Of a DNA stretch of 64,000 bases, positions 50,930 to 53,890 are shown one piece after another. The stretch lies in contig NW_027271016.1 of the NCBI RefSeq assembly GCF_040938485.1, forward strand, positions 1,844,436-1,908,435, read 5' to 3'. Position 1 is the stretch's first letter; each line of letters begins with the position of its first letter. The translations under genes and the position numbers were made by a program. Origin of the DNA: Diadema antillarum. Taxonomy: Eukaryota. The notes under the pieces were generated by a model, which made no database searches, had not been told where the DNA came from, and saw only the letters and a list, made by a program, of their open reading frames with translations.

Positions 50930-53890
50930 AACGTCATGTGCACTGGCGTAGCCAGGGGGGGGGGGGGGGGGGGCGATGGGGGCGGTCGCCCCCCCCCCCC
51001 CCCCCCTAAGATTTGGACCGGGGATTTGGGAGGCGGAAAAAAAATGCGTGTATACTGTATGCATGCACATGAAGCGGGTCTCCTTTGCAACCTTTCATCA
51101 AATAAGATATTTTTTTTTTGGAATATTTCACTCAAAGTGTGCACCAGATCGTTGAATTTCAATTCAAAATATGCAAAATCTCTCGTACTTGGGAGGGGGT
51201 ATCCCCCTCCCAAACCCTCCCCCTCTGTGCCTCTTTCCCTAGCTAAGTACACTTTTTAGATTTACAAAAAATTATGAATAATTCTGAGTGCACAAGACTT
51301 ATGACTTATATTCCGAAAACTCAAGGTTCCTTCATGTATAAGGGGAATTTCCCCTTTTAATCGACCCTTTCCTCCCTCAGCCCCCCCATTTTGTGTGTGT
51401 GTGTGTGTGTGTGTGATTTCCCAAATGTTGATTCCATCAAATATGCGTATACGAGATATCTCAATTTCAACCTTAAAAAGGCAAAAGCTCCATCGGAAGG
51501 GAAGGGTGGAGATAACACTCGCCAACGCCTTCTCCCTGCTCGCCCCCCCCCCCCCCCCCCGCCATGCATAGAAGTAGACTGTGGCTATACCCAGATCGCT
51601 TTATTTCAATTATAAAAACGCAATAAGCTCCGCGAGCGGGAGGGGGAATCCCCCTTCCCCTAAGCTCTACCTCACTAGACTTTATACATACACACAGATG
51701 GTGCACATTTGGAATAAGAGCTAAATTCCGTGATTTTAACACTTCGATGAAAAAGTATTGCACCAAAACTTTGCACCAGATCGCTGAATTTCAGGTCTGA
51801 AAACGCAAAATCTCCTTCGTGTGGCAGGGGATATGCCCCTATCTACACCCTCGTGTGCATGCTTTTTCTGCTTGATTGCTGAACAGACAGCGTTCATGAT
51901 ATTCAGTGTAAGAATTAATACAAGAAGACTAGTGTATTCAAATTATACCATTTTATAGGCAAATTGTTCAATAATAATCTACACTAAAATATACTGCAAC
52001 CTTAAACAAGTGGGACTGTTTCAACTCATTGAAACACGCAAAAACATGCATCAAATTGCACCATTTGCAACGTCAAAATGCAAAAAGTTCTCACCGTGGG
52101 AGGGGGGGACACCCCCTCCCACACCCTCCCCTCCCCCCTCGCTCGCTCCACTCGCTCGGGTTCAGTCGCGTTCATGATATTCAGTGAAAAGAATTAATAC
52201 AAGAAGTGCATTTAGATTTCACCATTTTAAAGGCAAATTGTTTCATAATAATCTACACTAAAATATACTGCTTCTTTAAACAAGTGGGACTGTTTCACGT
52301 CGATAAAACGAGCAAAAACATGCATCAAATTGCACCATTTGCAATATCAAAATGCAAAAAGTTCTTACCGTCGTGGGAGGGGGGACACCCCCCTCCCACA
52401 CCCTCCCCTCCCCCTCGCTCGCTCCGCTCGCCCGGGTTCAGTCGCGTTCATGATATTCAGTGAAAAGAATTAATACAAGAAGTGTGTTTAAATTACACCA
52501 TTTTATAGGCAAATTCTTCAATAATAATCTACACTAAAATATACTGCTATATACCTTATACAAGTGGGACTGTTTCACGTCGATAAAACGCGCAAAAACA
52601 TGCATCAAATTGCACCATTTGCAACAACAAAATGCAAAAAGTTCTTACCGTGGGAGGGGGGACATCCCCCCTCCCACACCCTCCCCTACCCCACCGCTCG
52701 CTCTGCTCGCTCGGGTTCAGTCGCGTTCATGATATTCAGTGAAACGAATTAATACAAGAAGTGTATCTAAATTATACCATTTTATAGGCAAATTGTTCAA
52801 TAATAATCTACACTAAAATAAACTGCTACCATAAACATGTGGGACTGTTTCACGTCGATAAAACGCGCAAAAAAATGCATCAAATTGCACCATTTACAAC
52901 ATCAAAATGCAAAAAGTTCTTACCGTGGGAGGGGGGACACCCCCCTCCCACACCCTCCCCTTCCCCGTCGCTCGCTCCGCTCGCCCGGGTTCAATCGCGT
53001 TCATGATATTCAGTGAAAAGAATTAATACAAGAAGTGTGTTTAAATTACACCATTTTATGGGCAAATTGTTTCATAATAATCTACACTAAAATATACTGC
53101 TACCTTAAACAAGTGGGACTGTTTCACGTCGATAAAACGCGCAAAAACATGCATCAAATTGCACCATTTACAACATCAAAATGCAAAAAGTTCTTACCGT
53201 GGGAGGGGGGACACCCCCCTCCCACACCCTCCCCTACCCCCTCGCTCGCTCCGCTCGCTAGGGTTCAGTTGCCTTCATGATATTCAATGAAAAGACTTAA
53301 TACAAGAAGTGTATTTAAATTATACCATTTTATAGGCAAATTCTTCAATAATAATCTACACTAAAATATACTGCTATATGCCTTAAACAAGTGGGACTGT
53401 TTCACGTCGATAAAACGAGCAAAAACATGCATCAAATTGCACCATTTGCAACATCAAAATGCAAAAAAGTTCTTACCGTGGGAGGGGGGACACCCCCCTC
53501 CCACACCCTCCCCTACCCCCTCGCTCGCTCCGCTCGCCCGGGTTCAGTCGCGTTCATGATATTCAGTGAAAAGAATTAATACAAGAAGTGTATCTAAATT
53601 ATACCATTTTATAGGCAAATTGTTCAATAATAATCTACATCAAAATAAACTGCTACCATAAACAAGTGGGACTGTTTCACGTCGATAAAACGCGCAAAAA
53701 CATGCATCAAATTGCACCATTTACAACATCAAAATGCAAAAAGTTCTTACCGTGGGAGGGGGGAAACCCCCCTCCCACACCCTCCCCCCCCCCCTCGCTC
53801 GCTACGCTCGCTCGGGCTCGGTCGCTTCGCTCCCTCGCAGACTAACCGCCCCCCCCCTAAGATGAAATCCTGGCTACGCCGTTGGTCATG
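50930..53890. repeat. Large inverted (foldback-like) repeat structure enclosing a 277-bp satellite. Ends carry a G18/C18 palindrome and the inverted motifs ggcgtagcc...ctaagat
   Basis: 50936..51010 reads gccag(G18)cgatgggggcggtcgc(C18)taagatttgg. 53840..53885 reads ccgcccccccctaagatgaaatcctggctacgcc in the inverted sense. The interior 51960..53850 holds ~7 tandem units of ~277 bp (caagtgggactgtttcacgtcgataaaacg.gcaaaaacatgcatcaaattgcaccattt.caaca.caaaatgcaaaaagttcttaccgtgggaggggggacacccccctcccacaccctcccc...). Each unit contains the perfect palindrome GGGAGGGGGGACACCCCCCTCCC. Degenerate units extend back to ~51100. Confidence 0.75.

What the first reader, a model, noticed from the sequence alone, without database searches (positions are those of the whole stretch)
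50930..53890. 277-bp satellite with a G/C palindrome per unit, nested inside a larger inverted structure capped by a G18/C18 palindrome
Each 277-bp unit carries GGGAGGGGGGACACCCCCCTCCC, a hairpin or G-quadruplex/i-motif candidate. The array is bracketed by inverted copies of ggcgtagcc...ctaagat. The left end reads G18-cgatgggggcggtcg-C18, a 50-nt GC palindrome. The repeated ORFs in the track (MGLFHVDKT..., four copies) are artefacts of the satellite.
Basis: seen in the sequence. Interest (0 to 1): 0.55.

Follow-up and report, generated by a model that had tools for sequence, protein, structure and literature searches.

The report
Transposon carrying an internal tandem array
The "satellite inside an inverted structure" is one 2.9-kb non-coding cut-and-paste transposon (hAT-like, with an 8-bp target duplication) whose interior has been tandemly amplified; this is a known way for mobile elements to seed satellite-like repeats, so it is largely ordinary.

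Summary
There are seven tandem units of 274-279 bp (51890-53823), each with a 12-bp-stem G/C hairpin. GGCGTAGCCAGG lies inverted at both ends, and a G19-N15-C18 palindrome sits at the left end. The whole structure is one transposable element, 50941-53884 (2,944 bp). It has 16-nt terminal inverted repeats (14/16) and a perfect 8-bp target-site duplication, GTCATGTG.

A scan of public metagenomes returned over 100 relatives, mostly 160-440-bp MITEs. They share the terminus (CA-NNN-GCGTAGCCAG), and 25 of 37 end pairs have an 8-bp duplication (at least 7/8 identical) at exactly the predicted register. The G-run/loop/C-run stem-loop next to the left terminus occurs across the family and shows compensatory changes (16 complementary variants). 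The window's 21-bp stem is the longest seen.

The window element's arms are collinear with a compact 379-bp relative. Its extra ~2.6 kb is three degenerate modules plus the array. Only the hairpin-bearing half of the unit derives from the element body.

This is a non-autonomous, hAT-like element with an internal tandem expansion, like other tandem-repeat-containing MITEs. No transposase partner was found. Genomic distribution could not be tested. The repeated ORFs are artefacts.

The parts
50933..50940 (.). Left copy of the 8-bp target-site duplication, GTCATGTG
   Evidence: Identical 8-mer abuts both termini. In the family, perfect 8-bp repeats occur only at this register: 17/37 pairs, against 0-1 at the other offsets.
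50941..50956 (+). Left terminal inverted repeat, CACTGGCGTAGCCAGG
   Evidence: 14/16 complementary to 53869-53884. The core GGCGTAGCCAGG occurs only twice in the window. Family termini are CA-NN-G.
50955..51006 (.). TIR-adjacent GC palindrome: G19 (50955-50973), 15-nt spacer (50974-50988), C18 (50989-51006)
   Evidence: 21-22-bp stem, -37.8 kcal/mol, z = -5.4. This is a family-wide feature with compensatory changes. It is the longest stem of the 113 scored.
50945..51108 (+). Left arm, collinear with positions 5-159 of the compact 379-bp relative (L001:294-672)
   Evidence: Local alignment; blastn 96% over the first 53 nt.
51120..51225 (+). Degenerate module 1: CACCAGATCG...CAAAATATGCAAAATC box plus hairpin GGGAGGGGGTATCCCCCTCCC (51191-51211)
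   Evidence: the repeat finder families D3, D5 and D9; module alignment; hairpin coordinates.
51393..51414 (.). (GT)11 microsatellite inside the element
51543..51560 (.). Second C18 run. TCG+C18 is identical to the 3' half of the left palindrome.
   Evidence: the repeat finder D4, 21/21 identity between 50986-51006 and 51540-51560.
51568..51665 (+). Degenerate module 2, with hairpin GGGAGGGGGAATCCCCCTTCCCC (51638-51660)
   Evidence: (D3).
51752..51845 (+). Degenerate module 3, with a weakened hairpin GGCAGGGGATATGCCCCT (about 51822-51839); 80% identical to module 1 over 59 nt
   Evidence: the repeat finder D9 and D3; alignment.
51890..53823 (+). Tandem array of 7 units of 274-279 bp. Each unit is an AT-rich half of unknown origin (~150 nt) plus a module of ~125 nt (box, hairpin, C-rich G4-complement tract, CTCGCT tail).
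   Evidence: TRF; unit table and identities. Only unit positions 153-267 match the relatives L001/L002, at ~89%. The AT-rich half matches no better than shuffles.
53201..53223 (.). Representative unit hairpin GGGAGGGGGGACACCCCCCTCCC. The others are at 52098, 52375, 52652, 52927, 53480 and 53754. An adjacent minus-strand G4 motif lies at 53214-53241.
53689..53884 (+). Right arm, overlapping the module of the last unit; collinear with positions 179-375 of the compact relative
   Evidence: Local alignment; blastn 83% over 98 nt.
53849..53863 (+). Right subterminal C9 + TAAGAT. It is a direct repeat of 50998-51012. In reverse complement it gives the G-run set back 12 nt from the right TIR.
   Evidence: In the family the right-end G-run starts 11-15 nt from the TIR core in 23/25 elements.
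53869..53884 (-). Right terminal inverted repeat (CCTGGCTACGCCGTTG on the + strand)
53885..53892 (.). Right copy of the 8-bp target-site duplication, GTCATGTG

Best explanation
Window 50941-53884 is one insertion of a non-autonomous class II (cut-and-paste) transposon. It belongs to a large MITE family that is most likely in the hAT superfamily.

Shown here:
- It has 16-nt terminal inverted repeats and a perfect 8-bp target-site duplication.
- It shares its termini, its TIR-adjacent G-run/loop/C-run stem-loop, an internal CCAGAT...AAAATGCA box and a GGGAGGGGG-N3-CCCCCTCCC hairpin with short (160-440 bp) relatives from many host-associated metagenome contigs.
- Its two arms are collinear with a compact 379-bp relative.

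Inferred: a compact MITE-like ancestor grew from the inside. First its body module was duplicated, leaving three old, diverged modules. Then a 277-bp unit was amplified to seven copies. That unit is the hairpin-bearing module plus ~150 nt of AT-rich sequence of unknown origin. Growth was by unequal exchange or replication slippage, including one 3-unit block duplication. The per-unit hairpin and the overlapping minus-strand G4 tract plausibly stall forks or promote misalignment and so favour changes in array length.

Mobility would depend on a transposase supplied in trans. That enzyme would recognise the TIRs and the asymmetric subterminal G-run motifs. The G19/C18 palindrome is the family's conserved left-end stem-loop with both homopolymer arms expanded. 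It is not a cap on a satellite.
For: - TIR and TSD in the window.
- Family-level TSD: 39 end pairs gave 17 perfect and 8 with 7/8 matches at the predicted register. In the register control, 17/37 were perfect at offset 5 and 0-1 at ten other offsets.
- Termini are C (49/50), A (49/50), N, N, G (43/50).
- Over 100 independent loci with different flanks share the architecture. More were found in host-contaminated MAG contigs; L126 has a perfect TSD.
- The arms are collinear with L001:294-672.
- Only the module half of the unit matches the relatives.
- Stem-loop covariation: 50/95 against 1/91 in the slid control, with 16 complementary types.
- The end asymmetry is conserved in 23/25 elements.
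- A second family member, L126, carries an internal (TGTGCG)122 array.
- No coding capacity: the ORFs are repeat artefacts with no Pfam hits. No Rfam family or tRNA was found.
- Precedents: MITEs seeding internal arrays and satellites (PMC9659126); DTC84, with a palindrome near each unit junction proposed as a hotspot (PMC3879986); hAT-like MITEs defined by an 8-bp TSD and CAGTG... TIRs (PMC3845634).
Against: - No autonomous partner or hAT transposase with these TIRs was found in the window or the fetched loci. The superfamily assignment therefore rests on TSD length and terminal bases only.
- Position 3 of the terminus is a purine in only 28/50 ends, and the TSDs show no clear nTnnnnAn preference.
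- At 2.9 kb this copy is far larger than typical family members. Nothing shows that it transposed with the array rather than expanding in place afterwards.
- The AT-rich half of the unit has no identified source.
- The role of the hairpin and G4 in array growth is inference.
- The left TIR core and adjacent G-run were the search pattern, so their conservation is partly by ascertainment. The TSDs, right ends, C-runs and stem extensions were not.
Confidence: 0.85

Rival explanations
1. It is a cut-and-paste TIR transposon as described, but from another superfamily that makes ~8-bp duplications (P, Merlin, MULE, Zisupton-type) rather than hAT.
For: No transposase partner was found. Terminal position 3 fits the hAT YARNG rule in only 28/50 ends, and the TSDs lack an nTnnnnAn preference.
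Against: The TSD is strictly 8 bp at one register. The TIRs are short (16 nt) and start CA..G, with CAGTG the commonest form. That is the same start as published hAT-like MITEs (PMC3845634). From general knowledge, MULE and Merlin TIRs and TSD lengths are more variable or longer.
Confidence: 0.1
2. It is a Helentron/Helitron-derived non-autonomous element (HINE/DINE-1 type), the class that carries satellite-like arrays in oysters and Drosophila.
For: The modular layout resembles it superficially: a left flank with an inverted repeat and a microsatellite ((GT)11 at 51393), a central tandem array, and palindromes (HINE layout in PMC7492417).
Against: Helitrons and Helentrons make no target-site duplication (PMC7492417). 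Here a variable-sequence 8-bp TSD flanks the window copy and 25/37 family pairs at a fixed register. The inverted repeats are terminal, not subterminal.
Confidence: 0.02
3. It is a genuine genomic satellite (centromeric, subtelomeric or dispersed) that merely sits between transposon ends. The array is then the primary feature, and the element is incidental or captured it.
For: Genome-wide distribution could not be tested, because only this 64-kb window is available. The AT-rich half of the unit is not derived from the family body, so foreign sequence was captured at some point.
Against: The array is only 1.9 kb and 7 units, with no other copy in 61 kb of flank. The last unit runs seamlessly into the right arm of the element. 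The module half of the unit is element sequence. One TSD brackets the whole structure. The only database relatives are single-module MITEs.
Confidence: 0.05

Closest known systems
Tandem-repeat-containing MITEs: DTC84 of the clam Donax trunculus and pearl/CvA-type elements of oysters (PMC3879986); Xenopus Xmix/Xstir and miDNA4, and others reviewed in PMC9659126
   Same: A non-autonomous element whose flanks act as a cassette for a short internal array of core repeats. Copy number of the repeats varies. Each repeat has a palindrome near the unit junction, proposed as a hotspot for array-length change. A microsatellite lies within the element.
   Different: DTC84 and pearl have a putative AA target duplication and were later allied with Helentrons. 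The element here has true terminal inverted repeats and a variable 8-bp TSD. The units are longer (277 bp), and only half of each unit derives from the element body.
hAT-superfamily MITEs, e.g. hAT1_NA/hAT2_NA of Bombyx and Rhodnius (PMC3845634); Mar of Drosophila (cited in PMC9659126)
   Same: An 8-bp TSD, short TIRs beginning CAGTG/CA..G, no coding capacity, sizes of a few hundred bp, and occurrence in many hosts.
   Different: The TIR sequence differs (GGCGTAGCCAG core). It was not found in the searchable literature. A conserved, covarying G-run/loop/C-run stem-loop abuts one TIR and is set back 11-15 nt at the other. This copy has expanded to 2.9 kb through an internal array. No autonomous partner has been identified.
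HINE/DINE-1 (Helentron-associated interspersed elements) carrying satellite-like arrays (PMC7492417, PMC4067079)
   Same: Dispersed short satellite-like arrays carried inside a non-autonomous DNA element with palindromes and a microsatellite.
   Different: These use a rolling-circle mechanism with no TSD and have subterminal rather than terminal inverted repeats. The TSD criterion was tested here and excludes membership.
Foldback-type elements giving rise to satellites (e.g. Tetris of Drosophila virilis, listed in PMC9659126)
   Same: A DNA transposon as the source of a tandem array; strong potential for secondary structure.
   Different: In foldback elements the long TIRs themselves are built of subrepeats. 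Here the TIRs are 16 nt and the array is central and unidirectional.

Membership tests
hAT superfamily (non-autonomous member) | 8-bp target-site duplication | tested here: met
   Window: GTCATGTG on both sides. Family: 17 perfect and 8 with 7/8 matches among 37-39 end pairs, only at the predicted register.
hAT superfamily (non-autonomous member) | Short TIRs (about 10-25 bp) with termini fitting 5'-YARNG | tested here: inconclusive
   The TIRs are 16 nt, 14/16 matched in the window. Across 50 ends: position 1 C 49, position 2 A 49, position 5 G 43, but position 3 is a purine in only 28/50. The window ends are CACTG and CAACG.
hAT superfamily (non-autonomous member) | Target preference nTnnnnAn (seen in many, not all, hAT elements; from general knowledge) | tested here: inconclusive
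   Among 25 TSDs, T at position 2 occurs in 10/25 and A at position 7 in 8/25. There is no clear consensus.
hAT superfamily (non-autonomous member) | An autonomous relative with the same TIRs that encodes a hAT transposase (BED finger, DDE core, hAT dimerisation domain) | tested here: not met
   No such ORF lies in the window or in the 131 fetched loci. The contigs are short and animal transposase genes are often split by introns, so absence here is weak evidence. The host genome could not be searched.
MITE | Small (under ~800 bp), non-coding, TIR- and TSD-bounded, many homogeneous copies | tested here: met
The window copy (2,944 bp) exceeds the size criterion because of its internal expansion.
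Classical satellite DNA | Long homogeneous arrays at many or heterochromatic loci | not testable with these tools
   Only one 1.9-kb, 7-unit array is visible and there are no other copies in the window. No host genome is available to search.
Helentron/HINE (DINE-1-like) | No TSD; subterminal inverted repeats; 3' palindrome | tested here: not met
   An 8-bp TSD of variable sequence and terminal inverted repeats. Definition taken from PMC7492417.
Foldback elements | Long TIRs composed of tandem subrepeats | tested here: not met
   The inverted relation between the ends is limited to 16 nt plus a G-run. The array is unidirectional.
G-quadruplex / i-motif-forming sequence | At least four G3+ tracts with loops of 1-7 nt; actual folding | tested here: inconclusive
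   The sequence motif is met: 1 on the plus strand (G19 region) and 11 on the minus strand, one per unit. Folding cannot be tested in silico, and the hairpin competes for the same bases.
Known structured RNA / SINE | Match to an Rfam family or a tRNA-derived head | tested here: not met
   Only generic GC-hairpin matches, at most 30 bits against gathering scores of 60-111. No tRNA was found in 50-55 kb.

The most novel reading that the evidence does not exclude
The stem-loop beside the left TIR (G-run plus a 2-4-nt extension, a loop containing GGGGG, the complementary extension, then a C-run) has been kept by compensatory substitutions in at least 16 subfamily variants across many host genomes. 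It always abuts the left TIR, while the right-end G-run sits 11-15 nt away. It could therefore be a structure-specific cis element needed for transposition, or for telling the two ends apart: a cruciform or hairpin read by the transposase. This has not been described for hAT-like elements in the literature I could search. The body hairpin and G4 tract, conserved in the same way, would then double as the motor of internal array growth.
Probability: 0.15. Interest if true: 0.55.

Novelty: new member of a known kind. Interest (0 to 1): 0.3.

Why it matters
It turns an odd-looking locus into a standard annotation: a non-autonomous hAT-like transposon with an internal tandem expansion, and no genes. 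It is a clean example of how a MITE body, with a hairpin and G4 tract at each unit, can seed a satellite-like array.

The family-level result is of modest interest to transposon biologists. A covarying stem-loop abuts one TIR, the end asymmetry is conserved, and the family is spread across many invertebrate-associated metagenome contigs. Together these give a testable hypothesis about structure-dependent end recognition.

Practically, these elements generate spurious ORFs. They also turn up as host contamination in prokaryotic MAGs.

Tried and rejected
- Real protein-coding ORFs: rejected. They recur per unit in several frames, and the only 2 database hits lie on the same repeat DNA.
- Organism identification: the 423-aa ORF at 18852-20123 gave no homologue. 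Sample and contig identifiers are not in the literature. The host remains unknown. The ENA contigs carry animal-type poly-C2H2 zinc-finger genes.
- Literature search for the TIR string and variants: only unrelated primers and probes. My recollection that plant Tip100/dTph1 TIRs (CAGGGGCGGAGC) resemble this one could not be verified, so I do not use it.
- Known RNA family or tRNA/SINE origin: none.
- Viral contigs: no match.
- Prokaryotic genomes: five Rhodobacteraceae hits are an unrelated terminator-like hairpin in one lineage, consistent with roughly one chance match by my estimate. L028 and L072 from the metagenome scan are likewise chance bacterial matches.
- Autonomous partner: no transposase in the window or the loci.
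- Source of the AT-rich half of the unit: no homology to the MITE body or to the element's own left interior, and none in any fetched locus.
- Other copies in the window: none.
- Long-period arrays in other long family members: none found by TRF in L103 or L070; only the hexamer array in L126.
- Symmetric G/C arm expansion as a family rule: rejected. Arm lengths correlate at r = 0.15.
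Full report
**1. What is in the sequence**

The window is eukaryotic. It has about 38% GC, many microsatellites and LINE-type reverse-transcriptase fragments, and its only Rfam hit at gathering score is one tRNA.

Tandem Repeats Finder reports an array at 51890-53825 with a consensus period of 274, 7.0 copies and 91% matches. The units start at 51890, 52168, 52444, 52723, 52997, 53271 and 53550, so they are 274-279 bp long with a mean of 276.7. Pairwise identity is 87-95%. Units 3 and 6, 4 and 7, and 2 and 5 are slightly closer to each other. This suggests that one step of growth duplicated a three-unit block.

Each unit carries GGGAGGGGGGACACCCCCCTCCC or a one-base variant. 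As single-stranded DNA it folds into a 12-bp stem (-15.5 kcal/mol, z = -4.4). The C-rich tract that overlaps and follows it is a canonical G-quadruplex motif on the minus strand. The 3-kb region has 12 such motifs, against 8 in the remaining 61 kb.

GGCGTAGCCAGG occurs exactly twice in the window, in inverted orientation, at 50945 and 53869-53880. The left end reads G19, then a 15-nt spacer, then C18 (50955-51006). It folds into a 21-22-bp stem (-37.8 kcal/mol, z = -5.4).

The repeated ORFs appear once per unit, with further ORFs in other frames and on the opposite strand. They have no Pfam match. Their only relatives among 5.8 billion proteins are two ORFs called on the same repeat DNA in another assembly.

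**2. The inverted structure is a transposon**

Extending the inverted dodecamers outward by four bases gives 16-nt terminal inverted repeats: CACTGGCGTAGCCAGG (50941-50956) and CCTGGCTACGCCGTTG (53869-53884), matched at 14 of 16 positions. The 8-mer GTCATGTG lies immediately outside both (50933-50940 and 53885-53892).

To test whether this is chance, I used the artefactual ORF as a handle into public assemblies. It led to two contigs from ENA assembly ERZ26222911.

- L001 carries a compact 379-bp element (294-672). It has the same termini, a G17...C10 palindrome and a single hairpin-bearing module.
- L002 carries a 5'-truncated copy.

By my estimate a 17-mer could give roughly that many hits by chance in so much DNA, so I looked at what lies beyond the pattern. 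Nearly all hits have CA-NNN upstream. Downstream they have a G-run, a short spacer and a C-run. A few GC-rich bacterial contigs (L028, L072) are chance matches.

I then paired left cores with right cores (CTGGCTACGC) lying within 6 kb. This gave 39 candidate elements. The 8 bases outside the predicted ends are identical in 17 of them and match at 7 of 8 positions in another 8. In a register control, perfect 8-bp repeats appear in 17 of 37 pairs at the predicted offset and in 0-1 pairs at each of ten other offsets. The TSD sequences are diverse. Across 50 validated ends the terminal bases are C (49), A (49), N, N, G (43).

This is the signature of a cut-and-paste TIR transposon that makes 8-bp staggered cuts. 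The best fit is the hAT superfamily, whose MITEs are classified by exactly these features, for example TIRs beginning CAGTG with an 8-bp TSD (PMC3845634). Most validated relatives are 163-440 bp, so the family is a MITE family.

A more specific pattern found further members in contigs of 44-51% GC that had been binned into prokaryotic MAGs. These look like host contamination, and L126 has a perfect TSD. The same pattern found nothing in viral contigs. Five Rhodobacteraceae hits are an unrelated terminator-like hairpin in one bacterial lineage.

**3. How the window copy relates to the family**

Its left arm (50945-51108) aligns to positions 5-159 of the compact L001 element. Its right arm (53689-53884) aligns to positions 179-375. 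The window copy therefore equals a compact MITE with about 2.6 kb of extra interior.

That interior holds three old, diverged modules (about 51120-51225, 51568-51665 and 51752-51845). Each has the CCAGATCG...AAAA(T/C)GCAA box followed by a GGGAGGGGG-N3-CCCCCTCCC-type hairpin. It also holds a (GT)11 microsatellite and a second TCG+C18 run identical to the 3' half of the left palindrome. After these come the seven homogenised units.

Only positions 153-267 of the unit are element-derived, at about 89% identity to L001 and L002. This stretch covers the box, the hairpin and the CTCGCT tail. The AT-rich first half of the unit has no detectable source.

The unit junction (...GGGTTCAGTC|GCGTTCATGAT...) and the end of the array (...GGGCTCGGTC|GCTTCGCTCC...) share GTCGC(G)TTC. 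This is consistent with misalignment at short homology. No other fragment of the element occurs elsewhere in the window.

**4. The hairpins are family hallmarks**

Of 113 left ends scored, most have a stem made of the G-run plus a short extension, pairing with the complementary extension plus the C-run. The window's 21-bp stem is the longest; the others reach at most 13 bp. Median run lengths in the family are G7 and C6.

Immediately inside the homopolymer arms, 50 of 95 ends have at least two consecutive Watson-Crick pairs. A control with the partner slid by three bases gives 1 of 91. There are 16 different complementary extension types, including ACAT/ATGT, TTTG/CAAA, CCT/AGG, CAAT/ATTG and CGA/TCG in the window. 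This is compensatory variation, so palindromy itself has been maintained.

The two ends differ in a conserved way. The G-run starts 0-1 nt after the left TIR core, which is partly by ascertainment. It starts 11-15 nt after the right core, across an AT-rich spacer, in 23 of 25 validated elements. That right-end result was not constrained by the search.

The body hairpin (GGGGAGGGGG-ATA-CCCCCTCCCC) and the box also occur in distant subfamilies from other metagenomes, such as L016, L032, L090, L116, L067 and L111. In some of these subfamilies the 3' half of the element is a series of short GC hairpins.

Internal tandem expansion recurs in the family. L126 is a 1,431-bp member with a perfect TSD and a 736-bp (TGTGCG)n array.

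**5. Mechanism**

Shown: this is a single insertion event of a non-autonomous, TIR-bounded element of a widespread family. The array is internal and partly built from the element's own body.

Inferred:
- Mobilisation in trans by a hAT-type transposase that reads the TIRs and the asymmetric subterminal G-run or stem-loop motifs.
- Growth of the interior by unequal exchange or replication slippage.
- The hairpin and G4 tract of each unit acting as a pausing or misalignment hotspot. This is the idea proposed for the palindrome near each unit junction in DTC84 (PMC3879986).

I cannot tell whether the array expanded before or after this insertion.

**6. Rivals**

- Helentron/HINE carriers of satellite-like arrays share the modular look but make no TSD (PMC7492417). 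The TSD result excludes them.
- A different 8-bp-TSD superfamily remains possible, because no transposase partner was found. Terminal position 3 and the target profile are also only loosely hAT-like.
- A bona fide genomic satellite that happens to lie between transposon ends is unlikely. One TSD brackets the whole structure and the last unit runs into the right arm. However, genome-wide distribution could not be tested.

**7. Comparison with what is known, and novelty**

MITEs and other non-autonomous elements that carry, or give rise to, tandem arrays are well documented (review PMC9659126; PMC3879986; PMC7492417). This locus is a new example, apparently on a hAT-like chassis.

The specific TIR string was not found in the searchable literature. 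Dfam and Repbase could not be consulted, so the family may already be catalogued.

The most interesting residue is the covarying stem-loop beside the TIR, together with the conserved end asymmetry. If these prove functional, they would point to structure-dependent end recognition.

**Verdict**

The feature is a transposon with an internal tandem expansion: ordinary in kind, neat as an example, and with a modestly interesting family-level structure.

Noticed in passing
window 22471-22788: A near-perfect foldback: arms 22471-22603 and 22612-22744 (133 nt, 95% complementary, 8-nt spacer), built from GAGTGAA-type 11-mers. A T51 homopolymer follows at 22738-22788. It looks like another small palindromic or foldback mobile element.
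   Followed up: partly
window 24110-24440: A second foldback-like structure: arms 24112-24226 and 24232-24346 (115 nt, 82% complementary, 5-nt spacer). The arms are made of 16-nt subrepeats (CACGAGTCATACAGCT and its complement), with further copies up to 24440.
   Followed up: partly
window 18852-20123 (-): A 423-aa proline-rich ORF in a local GC-rich island (52% GC, against ~38% for the window). It has no homologue among 5.8 billion proteins and no significant Pfam domain. It could be a lineage-specific exon or non-coding.
   Followed up: partly
window 3577-5261 (-) and 14646-16001 (+): Fragments of non-LTR retrotransposons: RVT_1 at 14646-15251 (E = 8e-26), a weak RVT_1 at 4155-5261, and zf-RVT at 3577-4206.
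   Followed up: partly
window 147-211 (-); 36764-36794; 55013-55276: A tRNA gene (43 bits); an interstitial (AGGGTT)5 telomere-type repeat; and a 264-bp (TATC)68 microsatellite that generates long spurious ORFs.
   Followed up: no
L126:1289-2719: A family member with a perfect 8-bp TSD (ATATCGAT) carries a 736-bp (TGTGCG)122 array. The contig is labelled as a Metamycoplasmataceae MAG but has 46% GC and looks like host DNA. L125, L129 and L131 are similar apparent contaminants in MAG bins.
   Followed up: partly
L001:640-700 and L001:945-990: In the compact ENA copy a T23 run separates the right TIR from the 9-mer TACATAACA that also precedes the left TIR. This is unexplained; it may be a microsatellite grown at the junction. 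About 280 bp downstream of that copy, a second, different subfamily left end begins (GCGTAGCCAGAGGGGGGGCAGGGGGGGCAATTGCCCCCCCCCCC).
   Followed up: no
L123, L124, L127, L128, L130 (Rhodobacteraceae genomes): The conserved bacterial sequence GGGGGGTGAATGGCGTAGCCAGAGGGGGGC..GCCCCCC(TTTT) matches the search pattern by coincidence. It looks like a terminator-type hairpin shared by Thioclava, Rhodobacter and relatives, unrelated to the eukaryotic element.
   Followed up: no
literature (PMC12182688): The Biomphalaria pfeifferi microsatellite primer Bpf5-R (GCTACGCCACTGCTTATGAC) begins with the family's right-end sequence GCTACGCCACTG. It may hint at a family member next to a snail microsatellite, or it may be chance.
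   Followed up: no
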